Shown here: positions 978 through 60,156 of the stretch, one piece after another | How the letters are laid out: each line of letters begins with the position of its first letter | How positions within the stretch are numbered: the stretch's first letter is position 1 | From: an uncultured Candidatus Saccharibacteria bacterium | GTDB lineage: Bacteria > Patescibacteriota > Minisyncoccia > Phycocordibacterales > UBA5272 | Length of the DNA stretch: 64,000 bases | NCBI GenBank assembly: GCA_964635125.1 | Contig: CAZWMQ010000002.1 | Location: 47,591-111,590, forward strand | Direction of reading: 5' to 3' | The notes under the pieces: generated by a model | Database searches by the model: none | What the model was told of the DNA's origin: nothing | The model's input: only the letters and a program-made list of their open reading frames with translations | Program-made: the position numbers and the translations under genes

Positions 978-2246
978 TTATTTATAAATTTCTTTAATAT
1001 TTTCAAGCATATTTTTTATATTGAAATTATTTTCAATATTTTCTTTTGCCTTTTCTCCCAACTTTCTTCGTAAACTTTTATCTTTAATTAATTTTAATAA
1101 AGCCTCCTTCATCTCATAAATATTTTTATTTTCCACCAATAACCCAGTCTGATTATTTTTAATAATTTCTTTAACTCCACCAGTGTCTGTAACTACAGCT
1201 GGCAAACTTAGAAGCCCAGCTTCAAGTAAGACATACGGCAAACCTTCTTTAATTGATGGTAAAAAATAAATCTGAGCTTCCTTAAGATAATTCTGATGAT
1301 TTTCATCACAAATCAATAAATCTACATAATAATCTAGATCGAGATCTAAGATTAATTTTAATAAATTATTTCTCTCTTCTCCGCCAAATGAGACTATTGT
1401 ATATTTAAAATCCTGAAATTCATCTTTTAATAAGCTGATCGCTCTTAATCCATAATCAAAGCCTTTATTCTTAGTCAATTCTCCAATCGAAACAATTTTG
1501 ACAATTTCATTCTGCCCAGTATCTTGATTTGTATTTCGTATTCCTTCTTGAGCCATCTGACTTGTAGCTTGTAATCTGAAACTTGTTTCTTGAAGCTTAT
1601 AGCTTGAATCTTGTGTCTTAAGTCTTAAAGCTTTTGTCTTGTCTCCGTCTTGCATCTTAAGACTAGTTTCCTGTGACTTGCTACTTGAAGCTTGCAACTT
1701 GTCACTTGCAACTTGAACCCCATTATGTATCATTATTAATTTAGCTTTATTGACTAACCACCAATTCTTAACATCATTATAATCTTTCTCTGAAACACAG
1801 ATAACTTTATCTGATAATAATATCGTAAGCCAAGAAAAAAACTTTATTAAAATAATACTTAGATAATTTCTATCTTCTCGAAATGGCCAACCGTGAGCAG
1901 TAAAGATTATCTTTTTAACTCTAGCTAATCTTCCAACCATCGCTCCAATTATCCCCATTTTTGAACTATTTAAATGAATAATATCTGGCTTAATTTCTTT
2001 TAATAATTTATAAAGTCTAATCAATACTCTTAATTCTTTAAAAATATTTATGTCTCGCGTCAAATTAGATATATGATAAGTCTTAATATTTTCTCCTTTC
2101 AACTTTTGATATAATTCACCATAACCACCACAAGCTACTTCTATCTCAAAGTCACTTTTAACTTTAGCTAGATTTGTCGCTAAATCGTATACATATTTCT
2201 GAGCTCCGCCCCAATTACTTTTAGTGATGAGATATAAGATTTTCAT
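978..2246 (-). CDS. glycosyltransferase family 4 (GT-B) with a ~55-aa low-complexity inter-domain insert encoded by a heptanucleotide (CTTGNNN)n tract
   Basis: N-terminal 'MKILYLITKSNWGGAQKYVYDL' and C-terminal 'KEGLPYVLLEAGLLSLPAVVTDTGGVKEI' GT4 motifs. Insert 'KLQETSFRLQATS...' at nt ~1560-1730. Confidence 0.75.
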   Translation of the reverse strand: MKILYLITKSNWGGAQKYVYDLATNLAKVKSDFEIEVACGGYGELYQKLKGENIKTYHISNLTRDINIFKELRVLIRLYKLLKEIKPDIIHLNSSKMGIIGAMVGRLARVKKIIFTAHGWPFREDRNYLSIILIKFFSWLTILLSDKVICVSEKDYNDVKNWWLVNKAKLIMIHNGVQVASDKLQASSSKSQETSLKMQDGDKTKALRLKTQDSSYKLQETSFRLQATSQMAQEGIRNTNQDTGQNEIVKIVSIGELTKNKGFDYGLRAISLLKDEFQDFKYTIVSFGGEERNNLLKLILDLDLDYYVDLLICDENHQNYLKEAQIYFLPSIKEGLPYVLLEAGLLSLPAVVTDTGGVKEIIKNNQTGLLVENKNIYEMKEALLKLIKDKSLRRKLGEKAKENIENNFNIKNMLENIKEIYK

Positions 2247-19124: not shown

Positions 19125-19380
19125 AAATAATTATTTTTATTTCGCTAAGATTAAAATCTTAGCGACTAATTTCTAATAAACAAAAATCTCTCGTTAAACG
19201 AAAGATTTGAGGTAAACTTTACAAGACTTAAGACCTAAGCTTCAAGACTAAAGATAAATTCTTATGTCTTAAGTCTTACTTCTTTTGACTTGTTACGACC
19301 TCCGTGAGCTTATGTTTTGAGGGCTTTCGCCCACTCACTTCTTTGGTTTACTTATATAGTATAACATATCTCAGCTATTT
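19125..19380 (-). promoter_or_regulatory. rplJ leader with promoter (extended -10 'TATGTTATACT' at ~19368-19377 on the - strand) and structured leader
   Basis: The -10 matches the consensus seen in the 1-960 array. Leader hairpin 'GTGAGTGGGCGAAAGCCCTCAAAACATAAGCTCAC'. Long imperfect palindrome of AAGAC/GTCTT heptamers at 19200-19290. Confidence 0.5.
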
Positions 19381-19878: not shown

Positions 19879-19995
19879 TCTGTTCTCCCGAATAGCTACT
19901 CTTGCTAATTAAAGCTACCATCGCTCTATGAAGTCTTCACGATCCAGTTCGGAATGAGATGGTGTGTTACCCTTCATCCAAATCAGGAGAACAGA
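19879..19995 (-). rRNA. rrf: 5S rRNA
   Basis: Reverse complement aligns with bacterial 5S ('CCGAACTGGATCGTGAAGAC', 'GATGGTAGC...GAGTAGC'). Helix I 'GTTCTCCTGA'/'TCGGGAGAAC'. Confidence 0.8.
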
Positions 19996-21695
19996 AAACT
20001 CAAAAGAGATTGGAGAGAGAAGCGGAGTCGAACCACTACCTTCTCATAAATTATTATTTCGTAGTTACTTTTCAGATGGTAACTCGGATAGAATTAATAA
20101 ACTTATGTGATGTCCTAACCGTTAGACGAGCTCTCTTCAATCTTTTGAGTATAAAATCCTATAATGATGTGAGAAGTTTTACTTCTCAATTCGAAAAACT
20201 AAATAAAAATCAAAATAAATTTCAATCAATAACTAGTCTTCCGAATTGAAAAGTAAAATATATAAAAATAATTAATGATAAACATATTTCCTAATAGGAT
20301 ATGGGTATTAGTAATCCTCAGCTGAATGCATTACTGCACTTACACTTAGACCCTATCAACGTAATCATCTCTTACGACCCTTATAGAATACTTATCTTGA
20401 AGTTGGCTTCGTTCTTAGATGCTTTCAGAACTTATCCATTCCCGACTTGGCTACTGGGCGATCCAGCTAGCGCTAGAGCCCACACACCAGAGGTCAGTTC
20501 ATCTCGGTCCTCTCGTACTAGAGATAAATCTTCTCAATATTCCAAACGCCTGCAGTAGATAGGAGACCAACCTGTCTCACGACGGTTTGAACCCAGCTCG
20601 CGTATCTTTTTAAATGGCGAACAGCCATACCCTTGGGAGCTTCTTCACCCCCAGGATAAGATGAGCCGACATCGAGGTGCCGAACTCCACCGTCGCTATG
20701 GACGCTTAGGTGGAACTAGCCTGTTATCCCCGTGGTAGCTTCTATCCGTTAATCTTCAACTGCATCTAATGCAAATTGTCGGTTCACTATGTTCTACTTT
20801 CGTATCTGCTCGACATGCCCGTCTTACAGTTAAGCCAGTTTATGCCATTACACTATCGGCACGGTTTCCATTCGCGCCTAACTGACCTTAATAAACCCCT
20901 CCGTTACTCTTTAGGAGGGTACCGCCCCAGTAAAACTCCCCACCAGATACTGTCTCTCAACGTTTTTTCCGTTGAGGTTAGTGTTTGCCAAGTTACAGAT
21001 GGCTATTTCACTGTCGACTCCATGACAACCGAAATCGTCACTTCAAAGTCTCACCACTATACTACGCAATAAATTAACAAACACAATACCAAGCTAGAGT
21101 AAAGCTCACGGGGTCTTTTCGTCTAACTGCAGGTAGGCGGCATCTTCACCGCCACTGTATTTTCACCGAGCTACTCCCTGAGACAGTTCCCCAGTCATTA
21201 CACCATTCGTGCACGTCTGAACTTACCAGACAAGGAACTTCGCTCAACTGTTCCTTTAAAAGTTGGACTCTATCTTCATCTTTCTTTTACAAGTTAAGAT
21301 GCGTACCGCTGGTCTCTAGTTAGGTACATTGACGCATAATATATTTCTATAAGTGCGGGTAGCTTTATAAATGGTTAATGAATTTAAAACTATTTCCTAA
21401 AACAATCACGACACTAATCTTATCGTCCCAATCATTTCAGATACAAATAATATTTATATCTGAAACCTTAGGACGATTATAGTTATCGCCGACATTGACG
21501 GGGGCTTATATCAGTCAGCCACATGGCAAATTCAAAGTTAGTCCAAAATAAATTTTAAACGCTTTAAATCCACCATGTGACCACCGATATTTGACCTTCC
21601 CGCATTGGTCAGGTGTCACCCCATATACATACTCTTACGAGTTCGCATGGAGCTGTGTTTTAGATAAACAGTTGCCAGAGAAACTTTCGCTGCGG

Positions 21696-22087
21696 CCCAC
21701 ACTATAAAGCTCTCTTTAAATCTTCAAAATCTAAAGAGAGAAAATAGGGTGCCGGTAAATTGGTACTACTCAATAATGGATCATACTGAACGTTACTCGT
21801 ATGATTAGGCTTTTTTTCTTCCGAACCCCAACTTCAAAGATTTCTTTTACAAGAAATAAATCCATTGTTTGTCGAACAAAAATGCTATTACTTTCAACAT
21901 GACTGTGATTGCATATTGAAAAACATTTCTGACGGAGGTGTTTCGCTTTCCTATCAACACCTCGTAGCGTTTACTAAAACTCTGCAGTTCTAGCTGATCA
22001 TTTAAGACCATTTCTCATTATTAACTAATCTCATACCAATTCCCGAGCAATACTTTCAAGCTCATAAAAAGAGCTTTATAGTGTGGG
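21696..22087 (-). repeat. 392-bp insertion in 23S flanked by perfect 18/19-bp inverted repeats
   Basis: 'CCCACACTATAAAGCTCTC' at 21696-21714 and 'AGAGCTTTATAGTGTGGG' at 22070-22087. Confidence 0.55.
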
Positions 22088-22691
22088 CAAGCCTTATTGC
22101 TAACTTACGGCTGCTTTTTTGCCTAGTTCCTTGGGGAGAAATCACTCGTTCGCCTTGGTCTACTCGACCTGAATACCTGTGTCGGTTTGCGGTACGGACT
22201 TATATAAATTTAAAGTATTGCGGATTTTGTGAATAATGTATCCTAGATGACTAGCTACATTATTCACAAAGCAATATCTACTATTCAGTAGATGTAGAAA
22301 CTTTTCTCGGCACAGTGCTCCTTTATCTTCACCGGTATTGCTACAAGCTTCACTTCATAACTCTCGGTATTCAAGAACTGATTTACATGCTCTTGCCAAT
22401 CATTACAAAGACCACAATCTGATAAGTGGCATAAAATACAACCATGCGTCATTCCATCACATTTATACAAGGTAAAGGAATATTAACCTTTTGTCCATCG
22501 CCTACGGCTCATCGCCATCGGCTTAGGCCCGACTAACTCTTCGCTGACAACCATTGCGAAGAAAACCTTATTCTTTCGGCGTGGGGGGATCTCACCCCCA
22601 TTGCGGTTACTTGTGCCAACATTCGTACTTCTACACGCTCCACGGCGGGTCACCCCTTCCGCTTCATCGCAGAGTAGAACACTCGTCTACC

Positions 22692-22836
22692 GATTGTAAT
22701 TTTCACAAGAAAGAGAAATAACTATTTACTAATTAGGGCGAAGGTCTGACTAATAAATTTATTAAAAAATAAATTTATTAATTCTGCTTCCAAACTATTA
22801 GTCATAATACTTATCTCCCTTGTGAAAATTACAATC
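22692..22836 (-). repeat. 145-bp intervening sequence in 23S flanked by perfect 18-bp inverted repeats (helix-45-type IVS)
   Basis: 'GATTGTAATTTTCACAAG' at 22692-22709 and 'CTTGTGAAAATTACAATC' at 22819-22836. AT-rich interior with a duplicated 12-bp palindrome 'AATAAATTTATT'. Lies ~1.2 kb from the 23S 5' end. Confidence 0.6.
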
Positions 22837-22911
22837 CCTAAACTTCGGTGATATGTTTGAGTCCCGATCATCTGTGGCGCAGAATCTCTCGATGGGTGAG
22901 CTGTTACGCTA

Positions 22912-22946
<35 letters not shown>

Positions 22947-23520
22947 CATTGTCAATGAAATTCCACCTCCTCACTTACACTTAACATATACTTAGGGACC
23001 TTAATTTTAGATCTGGGCTGTTTCCCTTTTGACCACCGGAGCTTCGCCCCCGGAGTCTTACTGCTAGACTATTAAACTTTGGTATTCGGAGTTTGATAGG
23101 TATTGCCGTATTTCTACTAGTCAAGACCTTCCAGTGCTCTACCCCCAAAGCGAACATCTAACGCTATTCCTATAAATATTTCGACGAGAACCAGCTATTA
23201 CCAAGTTCGATTAGCTTTTCACTCCAACCCACAAGTCATCCAAAAGAGTCGCACGACTTACTAGTTCGGGCCTCCACTTATCTTTCGACAAGCTTCGCCC
23301 TGCTCATGGGTAGCTCACCTGGCTTCGGGTCTTTATTATTCAACTATTATTTCGCGCTATTCACACTCGCTTTCGCTTATGACTCCATCACTTTATACGA
23401 CTTAGTCAGCTGAATAATAAAACTCGTTGGCTCATTCTTCAATAGGCACGCAGTCGAGGTGCAAGCACCTCTCCTACTCTTTGTAAACATATGGTTTCAG
23501 TTCTATTTCACTCCCCTCCC

Positions 23521-23564
<44 letters not shown>

Positions 23565-24454
23565 ACTCAAGGAATATTTAGCCTTACCGGTTAGTTCCGG
23601 CAGATTCACCCGAGCTATTCGTGTCTCGAGTTACTCAGGATAAGAGATAAAAAAGAGTTAAATATTTCGAATACGGGACTATCACCCTCTTTGGTGCTAC
23701 TTTCCAATAGCTTATACTATAAATAACTTTTGTAACTTTCCTAGATAATTCTACATCTCTTCCCTACAACCAACTTAGTATTACTACTAAGAATTTGGGC
23801 TTCTCTGTTTTCGCTCGCCGCTACTTGCAGAATAACATTGTTTTCTTTTCCTGTGGGTACTGAAATGTTTTACTTCCCCACGTACGCTTCTAAAGATATG
23901 CTCCCTAGATTCCAAGACTTTACTCTTGGAGAGTTTCCTCATTCAGATATCTTCGGATCGAAGGTTAAAAGGCACCTCCCCGAAGCTTATCGCAGCCTAA
24001 TCACGTCTTTCATCGCTTCCTTGAACCAAGGCATCCACCTTATGCTCTTATTTCCTATTAGGAAATATATTTACCATCTTTATTTTTAACACCGCTGTCA
24101 AAAATAAATATTATTTTTATACAGTGTCTATATTATTCTCATAATATAGACTTACCTTTATTTTCACATCTATATACATTGCCTGAAAAGACCCCAAGAT
24201 ATTTGGGATATCAAATTGTGCAATGCTATAGGATTCTATTGACAAATAACTTGTCTAAATTTTTGAAAATAAAAACCGCTTTTTAAGCGGCGACTAAAAA
24301 CACTTTTTAGAAGCTGCTTAATTTTTCTGTTTTAAATTCAACATATTTAGGTCTTTCAATATTAACATAATGGAAATAAAAATGCAAACCAATCTGATAT
24401 CTAATTGCTAGTATCTAGTTTCTAGTTAAAATAACCTTTCTAGATAACTATAGG

Positions 24455-37726: not shown

Positions 37727-39064
37727 ATGATTAAAAAAGAAAAAGTCAAAATTAAATTAAAAGAACCAATAACTTCTTTAAAAGGTATGCATGATATTCT
37801 AGAGGAAGAATACTATCAATTCCAAGGCATGTATGAAAAAGCTCAAGAAGTAGCTGTCTATTATGGATTTAAACCAATTGAAACTCCGGCTTTAGAAAAA
37901 GAAGAAGTTTTTATTCGTGGAGTTGGAGCTAATTCTGACATAATAGAAAAAGAAATGTATAATTTTAGAACTAAAGGAGGAGAGAGAGTTATTTTAAGAC
38001 CAGAATACACTTCATCTATTATGCGAAGTTATATAGAGCACGGCATGAATAATCTTCCTCAACCGATATCTTTTTATAGTTATGGGAAGCTTTGGCGACA
38101 TGATAATCCACAAAAAGGAAGATTAAGAGAGTTTAGACAATTTAATTTAGAAATATTAGGAACTGATAAATCAATTGCTGATGCTTTAATTATCAGGACA
38201 GCTTACACCATATTAAAAGAATACGGATTTAAAGAATTAATTATTGATATTAATAGTATGGGTGATAAGAATGATAGAGCTACTTTTATTAGAGAATTAA
38301 CTAATTATTATAAAAAACATCTCAGTAAGCTCTGTTCAACTTGTCAAAATAGATTTTCTAATAACCCGCTCAAACTTTTGGATTGTAAAGAAGAAAATTG
38401 TCAAAAATATAAAGAATTAGCTCCAGCCCCAGTAAATTTTCTAGGGACTGATTCTAAGAAACATTTTAGAGAAGTTCTCCAATATTTAGAAGAGATGGGT
38501 ATTGAATATAGAATTAATAATACTTTAGTCCGAGGGCTTGATTATTACACTCATACAGTTTTTGAGATTATAAAAGTAGAAAAAGAACTTGATGAAAATG
38601 GTAAAGAGATAACTGATGGTAAAGAAAGAAATATAACCATTACTGGTGGTGGTAGATACAATTATCTTTCTCAAGAACTAGGATCTAAAAAAGATATTCC
38701 TGGAGTTGGAGTAGCGATTGGTTTAGATAGATTATTATTATTCAAAGATTGTAAAGATTTACATCCTAAAATAATTAAAAAACCTAAAATATATTTCTTA
38801 CAACTAGGGTTTGAGGCAAAGCTTAAATCTTTAACTATTCTAGAAATATTAAGAGAAAATAAAATATCAGTTTATCAAACTTTATCCAAAGAATCCTTAT
38901 CTACACAACTATCTAACGCTGCTAAAACCGAAGTCCCCTATTGTATTATTTTTGGACAAAAAGAAGCTTTAGAAAATATCGTTATAGTTCGAGATATGCA
39001 AACTCATTCTCAAAAAATAATAAAGATCGAAGATCTCTCTGATTATCTTAAAAAGTTGAAGTAA
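37727..39064 (+). CDS. hisS: histidine--tRNA ligase
   Basis: Class II aaRS motifs 'FRTKGGERVILRPEYT', 'RLREFRQFNLEILG' and 'GGGRYNYL...GVGVAIGLDRL'. Confidence 0.9.
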   Translation: MIKKEKVKIKLKEPITSLKGMHDILEEEYYQFQGMYEKAQEVAVYYGFKPIETPALEKEEVFIRGVGANSDIIEKEMYNFRTKGGERVILRPEYTSSIMRSYIEHGMNNLPQPISFYSYGKLWRHDNPQKGRLREFRQFNLEILGTDKSIADALIIRTAYTILKEYGFKELIIDINSMGDKNDRATFIRELTNYYKKHLSKLCSTCQNRFSNNPLKLLDCKEENCQKYKELAPAPVNFLGTDSKKHFREVLQYLEEMGIEYRINNTLVRGLDYYTHTVFEIIKVEKELDENGKEITDGKERNITITGGGRYNYLSQELGSKKDIPGVGVAIGLDRLLLFKDCKDLHPKIIKKPKIYFLQLGFEAKLKSLTILEILRENKISVYQTLSKESLSTQLSNAAKTEVPYCIIFGQKEALENIVIVRDMQTHSQKIIKIEDLSDYLKKLK

Positions 39065-39151
39065 ATATTAACTTGACACACTTATAATAATTTATTATAG
39101 TAATATCAATAGGATGTTCTTTTATATTTATTAATCATAAAAAAAATACAA

Positions 39152-39898
39152 ATGCAAAATCTCAAAAGAGACTTCTTGAAAAGACTCAATTCTCTTAAAG
39201 AAGAGAAGGCTAATACTTATCTTTCTGTAAAAGGTCTTTCTAAAAATGATCTAAAGTTAATCTCTAAAGATGAGGAGAAGTTAATGAATTTGTGGAGGGA
39301 GACTCCTGAGGAATTATGTTCTCCCATAATTAAAAGAATGAGGATCAACAACAAAGAAAAATTAATTAAATATGCCAAAAATGAGAAGAAGTTGATGAAT
39401 TTGTTGAGGAATACTACTGAAGAACTCCGCCCTCCTATAATTAAAACCATTCTTAAATTGATCTCTAAAGATGAGGAAAAGTTGATGAATTTGTGGAGGA
39501 AGACTCCTAACGAACTCCGTCCTCCTATAATTAAGACCGTTCTTAAATTGATCTCTAAAGATGAGGAGAAGTTAATGAATTTGTGGAGGGAGACTCCTAA
39601 CGAACTCTGCCCTCCTATAATTAAAACCATTCTTAAATTGATCTCTAAAGATGAGGAGAAGTTGATGAATTTGTGGAGGAATACCTCTGACGAACTCTGC
39701 CCTCCTATAATTAAGGCCATTCTTAAATTGATCTCTAAAGATGAGGAGAAGTTAATGAATTTGTGGGGGGAGACTCCTAACGAACTCTGCCCTCCTATCA
39801 CTGAGAAGATTGTGGAATTATTAATGAGCTATGATGATAATAAATTCAAAATGGCCGTTGAAAAAATTGATGCGAATATTTTAAAAGCTATTGTCTAA
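39152..39898 (+). CDS. tandem-repeat protein with six ~30-aa repeats 'LKLISKDEEKLMNLWRETPNELCPPIIKTI' (90-bp DNA repeats); unknown function
   Basis: Near-identical 90-bp repeats at 39230-39790. Own promoter-like TTGACA at ~39083 and a terminator at 39913-39944. Confidence 0.6.
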   Translation: MQNLKRDFLKRLNSLKEEKANTYLSVKGLSKNDLKLISKDEEKLMNLWRETPEELCSPIIKRMRINNKEKLIKYAKNEKKLMNLLRNTTEELRPPIIKTILKLISKDEEKLMNLWRKTPNELRPPIIKTVLKLISKDEEKLMNLWRETPNELCPPIIKTILKLISKDEEKLMNLWRNTSDELCPPIIKAILKLISKDEEKLMNLWGETPNELCPPITEKIVELLMSYDDNKFKMAVEKIDANILKAIV

Positions 39899-39912
39899 AT
39901 TATAAAATCTGT

Positions 39913-39944
39913 AAGTGGTCTTGAAAGACCACTTTTATTTTTAC
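39913..39944 (+). terminator. rho-independent terminator
   Basis: 'AAGTGGTCTT-GAAAG-ACCACTT' followed by 'TTATTTTT'. Confidence 0.7.
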
Positions 39945-40023
39945 TTAAATCGAAGATCTCTCTGATTATCTTAAAAAGTTGAAGTAAATTTAATTTTGTG
40001 TTAATATATTTAAATTAATTTAT

Positions 40024-40263
40024 ATGGTCAATACAAATATTAAAGTTCATAAAAAGGAAAAAGACAATGCGATGTCACTATTACATAAATTTTCTAAAAA
40101 AGTTCAAGAAAGTGGTGTTTTACCTAAGGTAAGAAGCAAAAGATATAATGAAAGAGATATGTCTAAAGCTAAAATTAAAAAAGGTAAATTAAAAAAATTA
40201 GTCTCAGCTAATCGATATTCTGAATTAAGGAGACTTGGAAAATTAGTAAAAAAGTCTAAATAA
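40024..40263 (+). CDS. rpsU: 30S ribosomal protein S21
   Basis: 'LHKFSKKVQESGVLPKVRSKRYNER...KAKIKKGKLKK' is S21-like. Confidence 0.7.
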   Translation: MVNTNIKVHKKEKDNAMSLLHKFSKKVQESGVLPKVRSKRYNERDMSKAKIKKGKLKKLVSANRYSELRRLGKLVKKSK

Positions 40264-40665
40264 ATGCGAGCAGAAAAAAAGAATCTTGTTATTTCTAAAA
40301 CTGGTAAGCCAATTGATAAAAAAATACAGATATCTATTTCAAAAATTAAAAATGAAATTTTAAAAGATGAATATATTTTAGAAATTAATTTTATCACTCC
40401 AAAAGTTTCTCAAAAGTTAAACATTAAATACAGAAACAAACATTATATTCCAAATATTTTGTCTTTCCCTCTTTCTAAAACAGAGGGGCAAATATTTCTT
40501 TGTCCATCAGTTATTAAAAAAGAAGCTAAGGGCTTTAATTTATCCTGTGATAATTTTCTTATATTATTAATTACTCACGGTTGCTTACATTTAAAAGGAA
40601 TGGAACACGGCAAAAAAATGGAAACTCTTGAAAATGAAATCTCTAAAAAATATATGTTAAAATAA
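40264..40665 (+). CDS. ybeY: rRNA maturation RNase YbeY
   Basis: 'LLITHGCLHLKGMEHG' H-x-x-x-H...H zinc motif. Confidence 0.75.
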   Translation: MRAEKKNLVISKTGKPIDKKIQISISKIKNEILKDEYILEINFITPKVSQKLNIKYRNKHYIPNILSFPLSKTEGQIFLCPSVIKKEAKGFNLSCDNFLILLITHGCLHLKGMEHGKKMETLENEISKKYMLK

Positions 40666-40669
40666 TCAA

Positions 40670-41845
40670 ATGAGTAAAGATAAATCTCATTTAATAATTG
40701 GAGTAGATCTTGGAAGCAATACTATAAAAATGTGTGCTGTTCTACATTCAGAATATGAAGAAGAGACACCTAGAGTCTTAGGTATTGTCGAAGCTGAAAC
40801 TGAATCTATCTATAAAGGAGACATTATTGATGAAAATAATTTAATAAAAGATATAGAAAAAGTCTTCAATAAATTTCCAGATAAAATATTTAATAAAAAA
40901 TCACCTCTTTTTATAATAGGATTAAATGCTGATGGTATTTCAAGTATTTCTAATAGTAGTCATATCTTAAATAGTAATATAAATAAAGAAGTTACTATCA
41001 ATGACTTAAATCGGCTGGAAAAAGAAGCCTCGATACCCGTGGCTATGATTAAAAATAAAAAAATAATCTCAACTATACCCTTGAGATACAAATTAGATCA
41101 GAACGAAATCCAAGGTAATCCTTTAGGTTTAATCAGTAAAAAAATCGAAGGTAAATTTTTATTTATCTATTCCCCTTCAAATTACATTGATAAGATTGAA
41201 AATATCTTTAATACTCTTAAATTAAAAATCGAAAACTTAGAGATCGGTATTATTGCTGAGAGCATTCCACTTTTAAATAGACGGCAAAAAAATGCTGGGA
41301 CAGCCTTAATTAATTTAGGTTATTCTACTACTAGTATTTTAGTCTTTGAAAATGGAAAGCTAATTTTTGCCTCAGTATTGGGCTTTGGTAGTGATGACAT
41401 AACCAAAGATATTGCTTTAGGGCTACAAATATCTTTAGAGGAAGCTGAAAATATTAAATTAGATCAAACTTTATATTCTTATTCTAAAAGAAAGCTTGAA
41501 GATATAATTGAAGCTAGAATTGAGTATATCTGTGAAAAAATAAATCAAGAGTTAGAAAAAATAAATCGTAAAGAATTATTACCCGGTGGAATAGTTTTGT
41601 CTGGAGGTGGGAGTAAATTAAACGATATAGATTCTCTTTTTAAAAAGTATCTTAAATTACCGATTAAACTATCAGAAAAAGAAATTGCAGAATTTTCTAA
41701 TCAGCAAATTCAAGATCCAACTTATGCTAGAGTATATGGTCTTACTTTTCTAACTCATACTATGAACCATAATTATCATCTAGATAAATATGTTAAAAAC
41801 TTTTTTAGAAAAATTTTAAATTTCTTTAAAAAATTATCTCCTTAA
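40670..41845 (+). CDS. ftsA: cell division protein FtsA (actin-like ATPase)
   Basis: 'LIIGVDLGSNTIKMCAV', 'LINLGYSTTSILVFENGKLI' and 'GIVLSGGGSKL'. Lies immediately upstream of ftsZ. Confidence 0.8.
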   Translation: MSKDKSHLIIGVDLGSNTIKMCAVLHSEYEEETPRVLGIVEAETESIYKGDIIDENNLIKDIEKVFNKFPDKIFNKKSPLFIIGLNADGISSISNSSHILNSNINKEVTINDLNRLEKEASIPVAMIKNKKIISTIPLRYKLDQNEIQGNPLGLISKKIEGKFLFIYSPSNYIDKIENIFNTLKLKIENLEIGIIAESIPLLNRRQKNAGTALINLGYSTTSILVFENGKLIFASVLGFGSDDITKDIALGLQISLEEAENIKLDQTLYSYSKRKLEDIIEARIEYICEKINQELEKINRKELLPGGIVLSGGGSKLNDIDSLFKKYLKLPIKLSEKEIAEFSNQQIQDPTYARVYGLTFLTHTMNHNYHLDKYVKNFFRKILNFFKKLSP

Positions 41846-41939
41846 AATAATATTAGAACATAAAAGATAATTTTCGCAATACTTTGCATTTTTAAATCTC
41901 CTTTGTTATACTTTTTTTACTAATAAAGAATATAAAGAT

Positions 41940-43280
41940 ATGGCTAAAGTATTACCAGAAATTCAAAGTTTTGCACGAATAAAAGTGATTGGGGTTGGTG
42001 GCTCTGGAAAAGGAGCAATTAATCATATGATTACTTCCAATCTAAAAGGGATTGATTTTATAGCTATGAATACTGATACTCAAGATCTTCATAATTGTTT
42101 AGCTACTAAAAAAATTCATCTTGGAAAGAATTTAACTAAAGGCCTCGGAGCTGGTATGGATCCTGAGATCGGTAGAAGAAGTGCTGAAGAAACTAAAGAA
42201 GAAATCCAAGATGCCGTGAAAGGTGCTGACATTGTTTTTATCGCTTGTGGAATGGGTGGTGGAACAGCAACGGGTGCTGCTCCAATTATTGCTAAAGCGG
42301 CAAAAGAAGAAGGAATCTTAACTGTAGCGATTGTTACTAAACCATTTTTCTTTGAGGGGCAAAAAAGATCTTCTATAGCTGAAGCTGGTCTTGCTGAACT
42401 TGAGAAAGAGGTTGATGCTTTAATTGTAATTCCTAACGATAGATTGCTCTCAATTATTGATAGAAATATGTCTGTAAAAGATTCTTTTAAAATGGTAGAT
42501 GAGGTTCTGAAACAAGCCGTAGATGGTATTGCTGATATTATTAAGACTCCAGGAACAGTTAATTTGGATTTCGCAGATATAAAAAGAGTATTGAAAGATT
42601 CTGGAACTGCCTTGATTGGTATTGGAACTGCCAGTGGTGAAAATAGAGCCGTTGAAGCAGCTAAAAATGCTATTTCTTCTCCTCTTTTAGATGTTTCAAT
42701 TATTGGTGCGAAAGGACTTTTGTATGCGATATATGGTGGAGAAAATCTCCCAATGCTTGAAGTAACTGAAGCCGCTAAGATTATTACTGAGTCTGTCGAT
42801 AAAGATGCGACTATTATATTCGGAATTATTAATGATAATGATACTTTAAGAAAAGACGAGATTAAAGTAGTAGTGATTGCTACTAAATTTCCAGCCAATT
42901 ATCGACCTTCTAAAAATATACAACCGATTCTTGCTGGTATTGAAAAAGATATAAGTGAAAAACAACAAAAATTAAAAGTTAAAGAAGAGTTAATTGAAGA
43001 CGATGAGGAACGTGACTTAAATTCAAAAGAAAATAAAAAAAATATAAATTCTAATTCTCATCTATATAAAAACAAAAAAAATGAATTGGCTATTTCTGAT
43101 GAAGAAGAAAAAATTTCCTTCAATAATTCAAAAGATCTAGATGAGGACGATCTATTAGATATAAAAAGAAACTTAAAATCTAATAGAGAGGGCTTAAATA
43201 ATGTTTTGTTAGAAAGACAAGAAGAGGACGAAGAAGATTGGAATATGTTTCCGCCATTTCTAAGAAGGAAAAAGAAGTAA
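41940..43280 (+). CDS. ftsZ: cell division GTPase FtsZ with a long acidic/K-rich C-terminal tail
   Basis: 'IKVIGVGGSGKGAINHM', 'GGGTATGAAPIIAKAAKEEGILTVAIVTKPFFFEG' and 'NLDFADIKRVL'. Confidence 0.95.
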   Translation: MAKVLPEIQSFARIKVIGVGGSGKGAINHMITSNLKGIDFIAMNTDTQDLHNCLATKKIHLGKNLTKGLGAGMDPEIGRRSAEETKEEIQDAVKGADIVFIACGMGGGTATGAAPIIAKAAKEEGILTVAIVTKPFFFEGQKRSSIAEAGLAELEKEVDALIVIPNDRLLSIIDRNMSVKDSFKMVDEVLKQAVDGIADIIKTPGTVNLDFADIKRVLKDSGTALIGIGTASGENRAVEAAKNAISSPLLDVSIIGAKGLLYAIYGGENLPMLEVTEAAKIITESVDKDATIIFGIINDNDTLRKDEIKVVVIATKFPANYRPSKNIQPILAGIEKDISEKQQKLKVKEELIEDDEERDLNSKENKKNINSNSHLYKNKKNELAISDEEEKISFNNSKDLDEDDLLDIKRNLKSNREGLNNVLLERQEEDEEDWNMFPPFLRRKKK

Positions 43281-44999: not shown

Positions 45000-45171
45000 T
45001 TTGCGAAAATGCTTAAAATGTGTTAAAATCATAAAAGCTTAAAATCTATCGAGATTGAGCTATTGATTTGTTTTTTATATAAAAGATCTTTGGTCTATAA
45101 TCTAAAATATTAGAATTATAAAATAAATTTAAACCTCTTGTAGCTTGAAACTTGCTACTTGAGTCTTGAAC

Positions 45172-45252: not shown

Positions 45253-47190
45253 TTATTCCTCCCCCACCAAATCCCTCAACACTTCCTCTGGGACTTCTTT
45301 TAATTTGTTTCGTAAATTGTTTCTTTTTTCTTCCTCTATCTTAATCTTATCTTGCTTAATATCTTCAACACTCTCTTTAATATTTTCAGTCTCTTGTCTC
45401 ATCTCTACTTGATTATCTTTAATCTTTTTCTCCAATTCCTGATTATCTTCTTTTAAACTTTTAACCTTTCCATCTTCAATCTTAATAGCTTTAGCTAAAG
45501 CATCTTTTAAAGATTGATGATTAGCTTCGGACTCAACTCTTTGTTTCTCAACCCCTTTTCTTAATTTAGATAATTCAACTTCGACAATGTCGTTTTTCTT
45601 ATCATTATAATCCCTCTTAGAACGAGCCCGTTTATTCCTAAAATCATTATAACTTACTTCTTTACTCTCATTTAACTCTTGATTATTATTTTCATTTCGA
45701 CTATATTCGTAATTTTTATTTAGAGAATTATGGATATTATTATTTTGAATTATAGTCTTAGAATTATTTTGATAATTCTGATTAGTTTTATTGAAATTAT
45801 TCTTCTCAAATTGATAGTTAATCTTAGCGGGAGCATTTTGTTTTTCTAATTCTTCAATCTCTTCAATATGTTTAGTCTTTGGAACTGGTAAGAACCATTC
45901 TCTGATCTCTTCTTCCACGGCTTCCTTAGTCTTACTATAGTGATCTCTAGTATACTGAATAATATCATTAGCATATGTAATATCGCCTTTCTCAATTGGT
46001 GGGAGAGCTTTAGCTGAGAATGGTTTAGAGCCAACATTATCAATCATTAATCTCAGATAAATCTGATAAGCAGATAAATTCACAATATCATCAGCAGTAA
46101 AAACTGGAGCGAACTCTTTCTCAAATACCTCAGCATCATGAGCTCCAATTCTAAAAGTGATCATTGTTCCAACATTACCAAATACTGCCGACTTAACTTC
46201 CTCAGTCATCTGATCAATATATTGATGAGCAACGGTTAGAGCTAAATTATATTTTCTAGCTTCAGACAAAATATCGGCAAAGCTTTCGTTAGCGAAATTC
46301 TGAAACTCATCTACATAGAAAAAGAATGGTGGTAAAGTAGATAAATTATCATTCCCGGCATCGGCTCTAGACATAGCTGCTAAATATATTTTCGTAATTA
46401 ATAATGATCCTAAAAGATTAGCATTACCTTCCCCGACTTTCCCCTTTGATAAATTCACTATTAGTATTTTCCGATTATCCATTATCTCTCGTATATCAAA
46501 ACTAGTTTTCTTCTGCCCGATAATATTACGAATTAATGGATTAGATGTATATTGGCCGATCTTATTCTGTATCGCAGGGGCGGCTTCTTGTTGATATTTC
46601 TCACCGGCTTTAGCAAATTCTTCTAGCCAAAATGACTTTACTGATGGATCTTTTAAATTAGAAATCATCTTACGACGATAATCTTTATCACTTAACATAC
46701 GATTAATTCCCATTAAAGTTTCGTCATCGTTTTCAAGTAAAGTTAAAATAATATTATTTAAAATATATTGCATTCTATCGGAAAACTTATCCTCACCGAA
46801 TACTTTCTTAAAGGCCGCCATTAATCCATTAGCTACCAAATGTCGCTTATTAATATCGACTTTCTCTAAGACATTCAAAGCTAAGGGATGCTCCGTATCA
46901 AATGGAGCAAAGTAAATCACATCTTTAATCCTATGTTCTGGGACAAAGTCTAATAATTTCTCAGCAGTTCCACCATGCGGATCTAAAAAAGCTAAACCTT
47001 CGCCATTCTGTATGTCTTGAATAGCCATATTCTCAAGTAAAGTTGATTTACCCATACCGCTTTTACCAATAATATAAGTGTGTCGTGTTCTATCTTTAGA
47101 CTTAATACCAAATTTCACCATCTTATTGCGATAGTCAATATTTCCAAGATAAGTTATGCGATTAGGATCGTTCAAATCTATATCATCCAT
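45253..47190 (-). CDS. VirD4/TraD-like type-IV coupling-protein ATPase with a K/E/N-rich coiled-coil C-terminal extension
   Basis: Walker A 'IIGKSGMGKST'. Walker B 'FFFYVDEFQNF'. 'TVAHQYIDQ' motif. Confidence 0.55.
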   Translation of the reverse strand: MDDIDLNDPNRITYLGNIDYRNKMVKFGIKSKDRTRHTYIIGKSGMGKSTLLENMAIQDIQNGEGLAFLDPHGGTAEKLLDFVPEHRIKDVIYFAPFDTEHPLALNVLEKVDINKRHLVANGLMAAFKKVFGEDKFSDRMQYILNNIILTLLENDDETLMGINRMLSDKDYRRKMISNLKDPSVKSFWLEEFAKAGEKYQQEAAPAIQNKIGQYTSNPLIRNIIGQKKTSFDIREIMDNRKILIVNLSKGKVGEGNANLLGSLLITKIYLAAMSRADAGNDNLSTLPPFFFYVDEFQNFANESFADILSEARKYNLALTVAHQYIDQMTEEVKSAVFGNVGTMITFRIGAHDAEVFEKEFAPVFTADDIVNLSAYQIYLRLMIDNVGSKPFSAKALPPIEKGDITYANDIIQYTRDHYSKTKEAVEEEIREWFLPVPKTKHIEEIEELEKQNAPAKINYQFEKNNFNKTNQNYQNNSKTIIQNNNIHNSLNKNYEYSRNENNNQELNESKEVSYNDFRNKRARSKRDYNDKKNDIVEVELSKLRKGVEKQRVESEANHQSLKDALAKAIKIEDGKVKSLKEDNQELEKKIKDNQVEMRQETENIKESVEDIKQDKIKIEEEKRNNLRNKLKEVPEEVLRDLVGEE

Positions 47191-49532: not shown

Positions 49533-50945
49533 TTATTTCTCTAACTTAATTCCTAACTCTTTTAAATGTTTCTGACTGGTCTTCGCTGGAGTTTGAATTA
49601 ATAAATCCTTTCCTTCCCCAGTCTTAGGAAAAGCAATTACTTCGCGAATATTAGGTTCGTTCAATAATATCATCATTAATCTATCAAATCCTCAAGCAAT
49701 ACCCCCGTGAGGTGGAGTCCCCGATTCAAAAGCTCTTAACATATGACCGAAATTATTCTCAATACTTTCCTCATTATAACCAAGTATTTCTAAAACATTT
49801 CGCAAGTCATTAGCTTTATGATTACGAATTGATCCTCCTCCGATCTCATATCCATTTAAGATCAAATCATATTGTTGAGTGTAAATATCAGCAATATTTT
49901 TCTTATTATTAACATCTTTTAATTGATTCTCTTTAGGACGAGAAAATGGGTTGTGAGTAAAAGTCCATTCTCCTTCAGCCTCTGGATCATCACTCTCAGC
50001 AGTTTTCTTAAAAAATGGGAAATCTACCACTCAAGCTAAAGCTAATAAATCTTTATCATTTTTATCTTTTCTTAGATCTGGTCTATCATTACCATATTTC
50101 TCCATGGCTTCAACATAAGTTAAGATTGGGAATGGTTTATCTTGAATCTTTTTCTCGGGAAATACATTTTCAATTAACTTTATAATTAATTCTTCGTTTA
50201 ACTTGCGAATTTCTGCTTCACTCATAAAACTAACCTCCATATCTAGCTGAGTGAATTCTGGTTGTCTATCTCCACGAGTATCTTCGTCTCGCATACATTT
50301 AGCAAATTGAAAATATCTCTCTAACCCTCCAGCCATTAATAATTGTTTATATTGTTGCGGTGATTGTGGTAGGGCATAAAATGTCCCTGGTGAGAGACGT
50401 GCTGGTACAATATAAGATCTTGCTCCTTCTGGAGTTGGATTAGTAAGAACTGGAGTTTCTACTTCTACAAAGTCCATTTTTAACAATTCACTTCTTAAGA
50501 AATTTTGAGCTTTAGATCTCATTCTTAGATTATGTTGAATTCTAGCTCGTCGCATATCTAAATACTTCTTCTCCAACCTAACTTCTTCATTAATCTCTTT
50601 ACCATCAGTAGATATATCAAAGGCGGGGGTCTCGGCTTCATTTAAAACCTTAATCTCTAAAATTTCTAATTCTAATTCACCATTAATGATGCCAACTTTA
50701 ATATTCTTCTCCGGGCGAGAATTAACTTTAGCTTTTATTTCTACTACTCATTCTGGTCTTAATTTCTCAGCTATAACTTTAGCTTCAGTCTGATTAGGTA
50801 AGACTACTCCTTGAACTTTACCACTATAGTCTCGTATATCTAAAAATATCAATTTGCCCTGATCTCTTCTTACATCTATTCAGCCTTTGACTAATACTTC
50901 TTCATTCAAATGTTTATTTAAATCTTTAATTAAAGTCCTTTCCAT
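49533..50945 (-). CDS. aspS: aspartate--tRNA ligase (4 in-frame TGA, all at conserved Trp/aromatic positions)
   Basis: TGA at 50880-82 gives 'VLVKG-W-IDVRRDQGKLIFLDIRD' (E. coli 'CGWVNRRRD'). TGA at 50748-50 gives 'LRPE-W-VVEI'. TGA at 50031-33 gives 'LLALA-W-VVDFPFF' (E. coli 'FLWVIDFPMF'). TGA at 49692-94 gives 'PPHGGIA-W-GFDRLMMILL'. Motif 2 'FQFAKCMRDEDTRGDRQPEFTQLD' is present. Confidence 0.85.
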
Positions 50946-58323: not shown

Positions 58324-58593
58324 ATTTTTATTTTTAAATTTTTATGAAGTTTTTAAAACGAAATAATTCGCTAATAAATTAATAATAAAGAAAGAACAAC
58401 ACAACACTTAATTTATTAAAGATAAATAAGCATTTACCAACTTATACATAGACAATCTACATATTATTTTAAGTATATAACCATCAAAATCTAATGTCAA
58501 TATAGAAATAGTTTTACTTTTACTAAAAATATGTTAAAATAAATCTAAATTCTTAAGTCTTGGTTCTTGCAACTTGAAACTTGACTCTTGAAT

Positions 58594-58660
58594 GCAGTGG
58601 TAGCTCAGCTCAAGTAAGAGATTCTGCGAGCACCGCCCGTAATGGACGGAAAGTGGAAAT
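58594..58660 (+). pseudogene. partial duplicate of the tRNA-Asp 5' half with a divergent continuation
   Basis: 'GCAGTGGTAGCTCAGCT' is identical to the tRNA-Asp 5' end and is followed by non-tRNA sequence. Preceded by five CTTGNNN heptamers. Confidence 0.5.
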
Positions 58661-58697
58661 CAAAAACTGAATTGATATATTTCTGTAATAAAAATAT

Positions 58698-58771
58698 GCA
58701 GTGGTAGCTCAGCTGGTTAGAGCACCGCCCTGTCACGGCGGGGGTCGTGGGTTCGAGTCCCATTCACTGCG
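58698..58771 (+). tRNA. tRNA-Asp (anticodon GUC)
   Basis: Acceptor GCAGTGG/TCACTGC, D-arm GCTC-AGCTGGTTAG-AGCA, anticodon stem CCGCC/GGCGG with loop CTGTCAC, T-arm GTGGG-TTCGAGT-CCCAT. Confidence 0.85.
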
Positions 58772-58940
58772 CAAAAAATAATGAGAAACTCTAAAAGAGT
58801 TTAGAATATATTTTTGGCTAAGGAGCGAGGCTCGAACTAAATTGTCTGCAAAGCCAGTTTTTAATTTTGAAGAAATGAAAAACTGAGACAATTTATGCAG
58901 GGTCGAGAAATGATGAGTGAAGCGAATATATTTGGTGACC

Positions 58941-58963
58941 GAGTCCCATTCACTGCGCAAAAA
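58941..58963 (+). repeat. 23-bp direct repeat of the tRNA-Asp 3' end (58755-58777), att-like
   Basis: 'GAGTCCCATTCACTGCGCAAAAA' occurs twice, 186 bp apart. Confidence 0.6.
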
Positions 58964-59034: not shown

Positions 59035-59105
59035 TAGCGGAATGGAGTAAAGGTAACTCGCAAGGCTCATAACCTTGAAACCCAGGTTCGAATCCTAGTT
59101 CCGCA
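59035..59105 (+). tRNA. tRNA-Met (CAU), initiator-like (A11:U24, unpaired 1.72)
   Basis: D-arm GAGT-AAAGGTA-ACTC, anticodon stem CAAGG/CCTTG with loop CTCATAA, T-loop TTCGAAT. One C.A mismatch in the T-stem. Confidence 0.6.
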
Positions 59106-59143
59106 ACAATTTTGATTTTCTTTACTCCATTCTATTTTAGCGG

Positions 59144-59214
59144 AATGAATTAAAGTTAAACTCAGCAAGCTCTAACCTTGAAACCCAGGTTCGAATCCTA
59201 GTTCCGCAACAAAT
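59144..59214 (+). pseudogene. degenerate copy of the initiator-like tRNA; D-stem disrupted, anticodon loop CTCTAAC (would read as CUA)
   Basis: The acceptor, T-arm and 3' half are identical to 59035-59105. The D-arm and anticodon stem are mutated. Confidence 0.45.
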
Positions 59215-60079: not shown

Positions 60080-60156
60080 TGGTGTCAGTAGGTGGAATTG
60101 AACCACCGACCTTGGCTTTATGAGTGCCACGCTCTAACCAACTGAGCTATACTGAC
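60080..60156 (-). tRNA. tRNA with CAU anticodon (elongator Met or Ile2-lysidine type); CCA encoded
   Basis: Reverse complement: acceptor GTCAGTA/TACTGAC, D-arm GCTC-AGTTGGTTAG-AGCG, anticodon loop CTCATAA, T-arm GGTGG-TTCAATT-CCACC, 3' ACCA. Confidence 0.75.

What the first reader, a model, noticed from the sequence alone, without database searches (positions are those of the whole stretch)
39037..39988. Repeat-protein cassette inserted at the hisS 3' end with a perfect 40-bp target duplication
An 870-bp segment carries its own promoter, a gene for six near-identical 30-aa repeats ('LKLISKDEEKLMNLWRETPNELCPPIIKTI') and a terminator. It is bracketed by two identical 40-bp copies of the last codons and stop of hisS. 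That is the footprint of a site-specific insertion, or of a duplication-mediated capture event. It is not an IS: there is no transposase and the direct repeat is too long. The 90-bp DNA repeats are almost identical, implying recent expansion. The protein has no obvious homologue class; it may be a HEAT/TPR-like solenoid or a variable surface or effector protein.
Basis: seen in the sequence. Interest (0 to 1): 0.6.

Follow-up and report, generated by a model that had tools for sequence, protein, structure and literature searches.

The report
Foreign repeat-protein gene inserted after hisS
A small candidate-phyla (Paceibacterota-like) bacterium has recently gained one foreign gene for a helical repeat protein exactly between two essential genes, and a perfect 41-base duplication keeps both neighbours working; it is a clean but fairly ordinary case of single-gene gain whose insertion mechanism is unresolved.

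Summary
An exact 41-nt direct repeat (39026-39066 and 39949-39989) consists of the last 12 hisS codons, the stop codon and 2 nt. It brackets an 882-nt unit: a near-consensus promoter, a 248-aa ORF with six 30-aa repeats, and a hairpin terminator.

Four related lineages (HisS 77-85% identical) have an empty site: hisS stop, 36 nt, rpsU ATG. The window has the same 36 nt after repeat copy 2, so this is a true insertion. The closest relative (89%) and two more distant ones carry an unrelated, older 267-273-aa gene at the same junction. The site is therefore a variable hot spot.

The last hisS codons (TTGAAG) appear to be the -35 of the rpsU promoter. The duplication thus preserves both the HisS C-terminus and rpsU transcription.

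The ORF has the most atypical GC3 in the window (0.42 against a mean of 0.20). It has no close homologue among billions of proteins and is predicted to be a soluble alpha-solenoid.

I found no transposase, integrase, inverted repeats or attC. An independent k=31 assembly breaks exactly at the repeat, which argues against an artefact.

The mechanism is inferred, not shown. My best guess is a single crossover at a 41-nt att-like identity.

The parts
37727..39064 (+). hisS (histidyl-tRNA synthetase, 445 aa), intact; its last 12 codons and stop lie in repeat copy 1
   Evidence: Pfam tRNA-synt_His 6.6e-30 plus HGTP_anticodon; orthologues 74-89% identical
39026..39066 (+). Repeat copy 1 (R1, 41 nt): hisS codons 434-445, TAA and AT; attL-like
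   Evidence: Exact match to 39949-39989; 0 matches in 100 shuffles
39073..39101 (+). Cassette promoter-like site TTGACA-17-TATAGT (11 of 12)
   Evidence: Consensus scan, best site in the region; function inferred
39152..39898 (+). Cassette ORF: 248 aa, 29 kDa, pI 9.3, soluble, predicted alpha-solenoid, orphan
   Evidence: ORF. AF2 pLDDT 77, pTM 0.60, two helices per 30 aa. No close homologue. GC3 0.423, the highest of 52 ORFs. Codon position 2 varies least among the units
39254..39814 (+). Six 90-nt (30-aa) repeat units starting at 39254, 39365, 39455, 39545, 39635 and 39725; consensus KLISKDEEKLMNLWRETPNELCPPIIKTIL
   Evidence: Amino-acid positions 1-14 are invariant in units 3-6; variation sits at positions 15, 16, 18, 19, 22 and 26-30
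39913..39944 (+). Intrinsic-terminator-like hairpin (9-bp stem, 4-nt loop) plus T run
   Evidence: the only such site in 38800-40300
39949..39989 (+). Repeat copy 2 (R2, 41 nt), non-coding copy of the hisS end; attR-like; carries TTGAAG (39979-39984)
   Evidence: The independent contig L026 starts at 39960, which is the last 30 nt of R2
39979..40007 (+). Inferred rpsU promoter: -35 TTGAAG (inside R2), 17-nt spacer, TG-extended -10 TAATAT (40002-40007)
   Evidence: Only 8 of 12 to consensus, so the scan did not list it. The layout TTGAA[G/A]-17-TAAnnT, about 16 nt before the rpsU ATG, recurs in most of the related junctions, both empty and filled. Function inferred
40024..40263 (+). rpsU-like gene (S21, 79 aa), followed by ybeY, ftsA and ftsZ
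   Evidence: Weak Pfam S21 match, 7.4e-4, below the cut-off. Same gene order in all close relatives

Best explanation
What it is (shown). This is a lineage-specific, recently acquired foreign transcription unit: promoter, one ORF and a terminator. It sits exactly at the hisS|rpsU junction of a Paceibacterota/Nomurabacteria-like CPR genome. The ancestral state is hisS stop, 36 nt, rpsU. The 41-nt perfect direct repeat is the insertion footprint.

Why it has this form (inferred from conserved layout). The last hisS codons (AAG TTG AAG TAA) double as the -35 of the rpsU promoter. Only an insertion that duplicates this segment leaves HisS full-length (copy 1) and rpsU-ybeY-ftsA-ftsZ still promoted (copy 2). 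The cassette's own terminator insulates it from those genes.

How it got there (inferred; about 0.4 on its own). A single crossover, Campbell-type, took place between a small circular DNA carrying a copy of the hisS end (attP-like) and the chromosomal hisS end (attB-like). The crossover was catalysed in trans by a tyrosine-type integrase, or by RecA. This leaves attL/attR-like repeats around a non-autonomous, CIME-like mini-element. Recombination between the two copies would excise a 923-nt circle and restore the empty site seen in relatives.

What the product does (inferred). It is a cytoplasmic alpha-solenoid scaffold. Its variable positions cluster in the turn and second-helix segment of each repeat, which suggests a ligand- or protein-binding surface. 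The partner is unknown.
For: - Exact 41-nt repeat, with 0 chance matches.
- Empty sites with the same 36-nt spacer in L012, L013, L014/15 and L016-21, where HisS is 85, 81, 78 and 77% identical.
- Cassette A is absent from every relative. Its protein has no close homologue in the 5.8-billion cluster index or among 1.84 billion representatives; the best hit is E 1.8e-9, repeat region only.
- GC3 is 0.423 against a window mean of 0.200 (sd 0.053), the top of 52 ORFs.
- The two R copies are 41/41 identical, while the orthologous 41 nt of the nearest relative (L006) differ at 9 positions. Flanking DNA is only 77-87% identical to relatives. The event is therefore much younger than the lineage split.
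- A duplicated 3' end that restores the target gene is the classical integrase att footprint. Three more such footprints exist: tRNA-Asp (24 nt) and tRNA-Met (40 nt) in this window, and the rpsG end (20 nt) in relative L023.
- TTGAA[G/A]-17-TAAnnT recurs upstream of rpsU in most relatives.
- An independent assembly breaks exactly at R.
Against: - No integrase, recombinase or transposase lies in the cassette or among the 40 window ORFs scanned.
- At 0.9 kb the unit is far smaller than any described integrative element.
- R and the cassette have no match in viral contigs, phage records or plasmid records.
- R has no obvious dyad symmetry for recombinase binding; it folds at only -3.1 kcal/mol.
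- The other 3'-end duplications flank only 63-162 nt and could arise in other ways.
- The older cassette B at the same site has at most a degenerate 13-nt copy of the hisS end. A long duplication is therefore not a general property of occupants of this site.
- The promoter roles are consensus and conservation inferences, not measurements.
Confidence: 0.5

Rival explanations
1. Illegitimate, non-site-specific insertion. Foreign DNA entered at a break with a 41-nt stagger that was filled in, or by replicative template switching that returned 41 nt upstream of the departure point. Selection then kept this event because only a duplicating insertion preserves both the HisS C-terminus and the rpsU -35.
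For: No recombinase and no att-bearing relative was found. R has no dyad symmetry. Selection alone explains why the duplication spans exactly the stop codon and the -35. A different cassette at the same junction fits 'the only permissive spot' as well as it fits site specificity.
Against: No known bacterial break-repair or transposition pathway routinely gives 41-nt target duplications. There is no microhomology at the right junction (TTAA|ATCG against AAAG|ATCG). The recurrence of 3'-end duplications at tRNA genes is more typical of integrases.
Confidence: 0.3
2. Cassette exchange at a recombination hot spot, like a minimal mobile element. The R-A-R structure arose in another strain. It entered this genome by transformation and homologous recombination in the conserved flanks (hisS on one side, rpsU-ftsZ on the other), possibly replacing the older cassette B found in the sister lineage. 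This explains the spread but not the origin of the duplication, so it is compatible with either model above.
For: Three states (A, B, empty) occur between the same conserved genes in close relatives, and the composition is atypical. Both fit the definition of minimal mobile elements given in PMC3787668. recA lies nearby in relatives, and a TfoX_N gene is in the window.
Against: There is no patch of unusual divergence next to the insertion in sliding-window identity to relatives, although those relatives are only about 80% identical, so power is low. No donor with cassette A was found anywhere.
Confidence: 0.13
3. An old, fixed arrangement. The cassette is ancestral in this lineage, and the two R copies are kept identical by gene conversion or selection.
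For: Only one strain of this species is available. The repeat units inside the ORF are 8-17% diverged, so the gene itself is not brand new.
Against: It is absent from every sampled relative, and the sister lineage has a different gene there. GC3 has not been ameliorated. About 26 nt of copy 2 upstream of the -35 has no evident function yet carries no substitution.
Confidence: 0.05
4. Assembly artefact, for example a chimeric join or a collapsed or looped repeat.
For: The window comes from a metagenome-assembled contig. A 41-nt exact repeat is close to common k-mer sizes.
Against: An independent assembly of a public run is 100% identical downstream and ends exactly k-1 = 30 nt inside R. This shows that R has two right-hand continuations in the reads. 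In addition, the junctions give a complete hisS and the exact 36-nt rpsU spacer.
Confidence: 0.02

Closest known systems
[quoted passage not shown]
   Same: It is flanked by direct repeats made of the 3' end of the target gene, which stays intact. It has no integrase of its own. Recombination between the repeats should excise it precisely.
   Different: It is 0.9 kb with one intact gene and no gene debris. No cognate ICE, IME or integrase is known, and att function is untested. Described CIMEs are kilobases long and related to identifiable ICEs (own knowledge).
[quoted passage not shown]
   Same: The same junction (hisS|rpsU) holds cassette A, an unrelated cassette B, or nothing in close relatives. 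The composition is atypical, and the unit has no mobility genes.
   Different: Minimal mobile elements are not defined by flanking duplications. Here a perfect 41-nt duplication marks a primary insertion event. Exchange by flanking recombination is not shown.
Phage 'morons': a promoter-gene-terminator unit inserted between two genes that are adjacent in related phages (own knowledge; concept of Hendrix and colleagues)
   Same: It is a self-contained transcription unit of atypical base composition, placed between genes that are adjacent in relatives.
   Different: It lies in a cellular chromosome between essential genes, not in a prophage. Morons are not characterised by long flanking direct repeats.
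Integron gene cassettes
   Same: A single-ORF unit of about 0.9 kb without its own recombinase.
   Different: There is no attC (no RYYYAAC/GTTRRRY cores), and no intI or attI among the ORFs scanned. The unit carries its own promoter and terminator.
IS elements and MITEs with target-site duplications
   Same: An insert flanked by a direct duplication of target sequence.
   Different: There is no transposase and no terminal inverted repeats (10 of 40 matches). The duplication is 41 nt, against the 2-15 nt typical of transposases (own knowledge).
Alpha-solenoid repeat proteins (HEAT, TPR, PPR, HAT, Puf and designed helical repeats)
   Different: The 30-aa unit with motif LMNLWxxTPxELxPPIIK matches no Pfam repeat family stretch by stretch. 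Sequence relatives are only seven uncharacterised repeat proteins at E 1e-9 to 1e-4.

Membership tests
Insertion sequence / MITE | Transposase gene (IS), or terminal inverted repeats (IS and MITE) | tested here: not met
   The only ORF is the repeat protein. Its Pfam hits are summed-repeat noise, with 0 or 1 stretches passing. The ends of the insert match in inverted orientation at 10 of 40 positions, and no relevant inverted repeat was reported.
Insertion sequence / MITE | Short target-site duplication (about 2-15 bp) | tested here: not met
   The duplication is 41 nt.
Integron gene cassette | attC recombination site at the 3' end (RYYYAAC ... GTTRRRY cores, imperfect palindrome) | tested here: not met
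   No core motif was found in 39001-40030 on the + strand, and no paired pattern on either strand.
Integron gene cassette | Adjacent intI integrase and attI platform | tested here: not met
   No integrase domain was found in the 40 window ORFs scanned. The rest of the genome was not available.
Integrase-mediated integrative element / CIME | Direct repeats (attL/attR) that reproduce the 3' end of the target gene and leave it intact | tested here: met
   R1 and R2 are 41/41 identical, and hisS is full-length with the same C-terminus as its orthologues.
Integrase-mediated integrative element / CIME | Repeats are products of site-specific recombination by a cognate integrase; a related autonomous element with the same att exists | tested here: inconclusive
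   No match to R or the cassette in viral contigs, phage records or plasmid records. No integrase in the window. The genome-wide and metagenome-wide searches could not be completed.
Integrase-mediated integrative element / CIME | Excision to a circle and restoration of attB | not testable with these tools
   This needs read-level data or PCR. Only the predicted product can be given: an empty site identical in layout to L012-L016.
Minimal mobile element / recombination hot spot | Different gene content between the same conserved flanking genes in close relatives | tested here: met
   Cassette A in the window, cassette B in L006-11, L022 and L025, and an empty site in L012-L021.
Minimal mobile element / recombination hot spot | Transfer by homologous recombination in the flanks | tested here: inconclusive
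   No divergence patch appears around the junction, but the nearest relatives are only about 80% identical in DNA.
Phage moron | Autonomous promoter-ORF-terminator unit between genes that are adjacent in relatives | tested here: met
   Consensus promoter and terminator; empty sites in relatives. Function of the signals is inferred.
Phage moron | Located in a phage or prophage genome | tested here: not met
   The neighbours are pth, lepB, hisS, rpsU, ybeY, ftsA and ftsZ.
Named solenoid repeat families (HEAT, TPR, PPR, Sel1, ARM) | Significant per-repeat match to the family profile | tested here: not met
   No such Pfam family is listed. The listed hits have 0-1 stretches passing on their own. 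The PDB sequence search gave nothing below E 0.01.
Named solenoid repeat families (HEAT, TPR, PPR, Sel1, ARM) | Stacked helical-hairpin solenoid fold | tested here: met

The most novel reading that the evidence does not exclude
R-flanked single-gene units may be a previously unrecognised class of miniature, recombinase-less mobile cassettes in CPR bacteria. They would integrate by recombination at the 3' ends of essential genes and tRNAs, using a trans-acting integrase from a phage or a host Xer-like enzyme. Each cassette would carry the copy of the target end that rebuilds both the gene and the overlapping downstream promoter. The tRNA-Asp, tRNA-Met and rpsG 3'-end duplications would then be scars of the same process.
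Probability: 0.12. Interest if true: 0.7.

Novelty: new variant of a known kind. Interest (0 to 1): 0.4.

Why it matters
CPR/Patescibacteria genomes are tiny and syntenic, and how they gain genes is poorly documented. This locus gives a base-pair-resolved example with the empty site, an alternative occupant and the filled site all in hand. It shows that a single foreign gene can be slotted between essential genes without harming them, because the duplication rebuilds a gene end and an overlapping promoter. It offers a directly testable substrate: does R recombine, and what acts on it? It also adds an orphan 30-aa helical-repeat family whose variable positions suggest a binding surface. If the mechanism turns out to be a trans-acting integrase or host recombinase working on 0.9-kb units, it would extend the known size range of integrative elements. 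If not, it remains a tidy but ordinary strain-specific islet.

Tried and rejected
1. Pfam, PHROG and PADLOC hits to the repeat protein (DUF3475, RAD51D_N, Cas11 and others) were rejected. Nearly all have 0 stretches passing on their own (one has 1), so they are weak scores summed over repeats.

2. The apparent similarity of the cassette A and B promoter regions (ATATTA..TTGAC..TATAATA) is not significant against shuffles (p 0.11-0.5). B regions match each other strongly. A therefore does not reuse B's promoter.

3. The genome contigs relatives (HisS 42-57% identical) have hisS-def-fmt, which is too distant for an empty-site test.

5. Exact-protein look-ups of the window's HisS and cassette protein returned 'not on record'.

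6. Viral contig, phage and plasmid searches all found nothing. The queries were R, the repeat unit, the A protein, the B family and the duplicated tRNA 3' ends.

7. The attC, terminal-inverted-repeat and R-hairpin checks were negative.

8. The Pfam scan of 40 window ORFs for integrases or transposases was negative.

9. Sliding-window identity showed no imported tract around the site.

11. The minus-strand ORF 39217-39801 was rejected as a repeat-generated artefact. Variation among units is lowest at + frame codon position 2.
Full report
**Observation**

Window 38400-40600 was read directly.
- hisS (37727-39064, 445 aa; Pfam tRNA-synt_His 6.6e-30 plus the anticodon-binding domain) ends with ...ATC GAA GAT CTC TCT GAT TAT CTT AAA AAG TTG AAG TAA.
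- The 41 nt ATCGAAGATCTCTCTGATTATCTTAAAAAGTTGAAGTAAAT occur twice, at 39026-39066 and 39949-39989. There are no mismatches and no chance matches in 100 dinucleotide shuffles.
- Between the copies lie 882 nt. They hold the best sigma-70-like site of the region (TTGACA-17-TATAGT, 39073-39101), a 248-aa ORF (39152-39898), and the only terminator-like hairpin (39913-39934 plus a T run).
- The ORF contains six 30-aa units. TRF reports period 90, 4.7 copies and 90% matches.

**Not an artefact**

A public-run contig assembled independently (Logan, SRR11845619; locus L026) carries the identical S21 gene. It is 100% identical to window 39960-43263 and begins exactly at the last 30 nt of repeat copy 2. 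Logan graphs use k=31 (my own knowledge). A contig end at k-1 nt inside R means that R has two different right-hand continuations in the reads. That is what the filled structure predicts.

**Organism and relatives**

- HisS relatives in species-representative genomes are Candidatus Nomurabacteria or Paceibacterota MAGs at 42-57% identity, and they have hisS-def-fmt. They are too distant to be useful.
- The protein index gave closer HisS relatives at 72-89% identity, and their contigs were fetched.
- Four lineages have hisS stop, 36 nt, rpsU ATG: L012 (85%), L013 (81%), L014/15 (78%) and L016-21 (77%) (identities). The junctions are printed.
- In the window, the distance from the stop codon inside copy 2 (39985-39987) to the rpsU ATG (40024) is also 36 nt. 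Deleting one R plus the 882 nt therefore recreates the relatives' layout exactly.

**A hot spot, not a one-off**

- The closest lineage (HisS 89%; six samples, L006-L011) has the junction filled by a different unit: promoter-like TTGACT..., a 273-aa ORF (P0128, no Pfam domain) and a hairpin terminator.
- Homologues of that protein at 59% and 54% identity occupy the same junction in two more distant lineages, L025 and L022 (HisS 74-75%). Their 5' regions are homologous, and the right junction TATATTGAAATAT is conserved.
- A 41%-identical homologue sits between rpsG and fusA in another genome, L023.
- On a HisS tree the states are ((B,B),(empty,empty)),(empty,(empty,(B,A))). B is therefore an old, patchily distributed occupant, and A is unique to the window's lineage.
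- The 5' region of cassette A is not significantly similar to B's (p 0.11-0.5). A is an independent arrival, into an empty site or replacing B.

**Why a duplication**

- In the empty sites the sequence is ...AAG TTG AA[G/A] TAA, then a 17-nt spacer counted from the TTGAA[G/A] hexamer, then TAAnnT, with a TG just upstream in most lineages. The rpsU ATG follows about 16 nt later.
- The B-filled sites keep TTGAAA at the same spacing.
- I infer that the last hisS codons supply the -35 of the rpsU(-ybeY-ftsA-ftsZ) promoter. The match is only 8 of 12 to consensus, so the scan did not list it. The argument rests on conservation of the layout.
- An insertion at this junction would either truncate HisS or separate rpsU from its -35. 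It would also place rpsU behind the cassette's terminator.
- Duplicating R avoids both problems: copy 1 completes hisS, and copy 2 provides the -35.

**Foreign and recent**

- The ORF's GC3 is 0.423. The 52 window ORFs average 0.200 (sd 0.053), and the next highest is 0.320. The tandem repeats make this less than 248 independent codons.
- The two R copies are identical, whereas the orthologous 41 nt in L006 differ at 9 positions. Flanking DNA is 77-87% identical to relatives.
- The event is therefore far younger than the split from the nearest sampled lineage. With no conspecific genomes available it cannot be dated more finely.

**The protein**

- It is 248 aa, 29 kDa, pI 9.3, with no hydrophobic segment: the maximum Kyte-Doolittle score over 19 residues is 0.52. 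It is probably cytoplasmic, not a Sec-exported surface protein.
- Variation among repeat units is lowest at codon position 2 of the + frame: 2 of 20 variable sites in units 3-6. This supports that frame over the minus-strand ORF.
- In units 3-6, residues 1-14 (KLISKDEEKLMNLW) are invariant. Changes cluster at positions 15, 16, 18, 19, 22 and 26-30, which suggests a variable binding face.
- AlphaFold2 without an alignment gives pLDDT 77 and pTM 0.60, all helical, two helices per unit.
- The word-index search found no homologue. Full HMMER against 1.84 billion representatives found seven weak repeat-region hits. The best is E 1.8e-9 to a 684-aa protein with units ...KYGWENTPDELKPIAIKGFEKDP..., which shares a W-x-x-T-P-x-E-L motif. 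None has a Pfam domain.
- Its function is unknown. I commit only to 'soluble alpha-solenoid binding scaffold'.

**Mechanism**

- Excluded by test: IS or MITE (no transposase, no inverted ends, 41-nt duplication) and integron cassette (no attC cores, own promoter).
- No integrase or recombinase domain was found in the 40 ORFs scanned.
- R, the cassette and its protein have no match in viral contigs, phage genomes or plasmids.
- The footprint is a perfect duplication of a gene's 3' end that leaves the gene intact. That is the classical signature of integration by recombination at an att identity segment. An element that keeps attL/attR but has no integrase is what the literature calls a CIME (PMC5704250).
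- The same kind of footprint recurs:
  - the last 24 nt of tRNA-Asp plus flank, repeated 186 nt downstream;
  - the last 40 nt of tRNA-Met plus flank, repeated 103 nt downstream;
  - the last 15 nt of rpsG plus 5 nt, repeated 123 nt downstream, at the edge of a three-gene insertion in L023.
- I therefore rank a Campbell-type single crossover at R first (about 0.4), catalysed by an integrase in trans or by RecA.
- An illegitimate duplicating insertion filtered by selection comes second (about 0.3).
- Import of a pre-formed R-A-R by flanking homologous recombination, in the style of minimal mobile elements (PMC3787668), is a compatible route of spread (about 0.13).
- No step of any mechanism is shown here.

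**Verdict**

This is a real, cleanly delimited, lineage-specific single-gene insertion at a variable junction between essential genes. There is a functional rationale for its long flanking duplication, and its product is an orphan solenoid protein. It is a small, integrase-less variant of known att-flanked or hot-spot islets rather than a new kind of system. Interest is moderate, at 0.4.

Noticed in passing
window 59036-59212: The last 40 nt of tRNA-Met(CAT) plus flank (59070-59109) are repeated exactly at 59173-59212. The second copy (about 59140-59212) looks like a degenerate whole tRNA: the acceptor and D arms are similar and the anticodon arm is scrambled. Neither ARAGORN nor Rfam calls it.
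   Followed up: partly
window 58594-58963: tRNA-Asp (58698-58772) has its last 24 nt plus flank repeated exactly at 58940-58963. A 5' fragment (GCAGTGGTAGCTCAGCT..GAGCACCGCCC) lies about 100 nt upstream at 58594-58640. These tRNA fragments may be scars of integration or of duplication.
   Followed up: partly
L023 3130-3272 (JGI 3300056623 contig); same in L024: The last 15 nt of rpsG plus 5 nt (CATTTTGCTTGGTAGAAAAA) are repeated exactly 123 nt downstream, and each copy is followed by its own terminator hairpin. This lies at the start of a three-gene insertion (177 aa, a B-family protein of 267 aa, and DUF6915) between rpsG and fusA. It is the same footprint type as at hisS.
   Followed up: partly
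window 45137-45171, 58552-58593, 1582-1718 (+) and 19219-19246 (-): Tandem heptamer arrays (CTT[G/A]NNN, 4-7 copies) occur at five places. One ends 1 nt before tRNA-Glu. One ends 1 nt before the tRNA-Asp-like 5' fragment. Two lie inside the linker of a minus-strand glycosyltransferase ORF. One lies downstream of the 5S rRNA. They are unexplained.
   Followed up: no
window 20289-24061 (-): The 23S rRNA match spans 3773 nt against a 2925-nt model, so the gene carries roughly 850 nt of insertion(s). Such insertions are common in CPR rRNA genes (own knowledge). The 5S rRNA is at 19883-19990.
   Followed up: no
window 45253-47190 (-) and 60202-62829 (-): A TrwB-like type IV coupling protein gene abuts tRNA-Glu. 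An 875-aa protein with a Peptidase_S74 (endosialidase/tail-fibre chaperone) domain abuts a second tRNA-Met (60080-60156). Both may be remnants of mobile elements near tRNA genes.
   Followed up: no
L006 5339-6365; L022 3906-4910; L025 3002-end: Cassette B is a conserved hypothetical protein family of 267-273 aa with no Pfam domain and no viral relatives. It has its own promoter, conserved 5'UTR and terminator. It occupies hisS|rpsU in three lineages and the rpsG|fusA interval in another genome.
   Followed up: partly
window 49692-50576 (-): A class II aminoacyl-tRNA synthetase core (tRNA-synt_2, profile positions 7-180 of 308) sits in a 181-aa ORF directly followed by a 112-aa ORF. The gene may be split or frameshifted.
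   Followed up: no
window 39152-39898: The exact 248-aa product is absent from the 15-billion-protein collection, although HisS from the same 113-kb NCBI contig is present. The ORF was probably not called, or was called with another start, in the deposited annotation.
   Followed up: no
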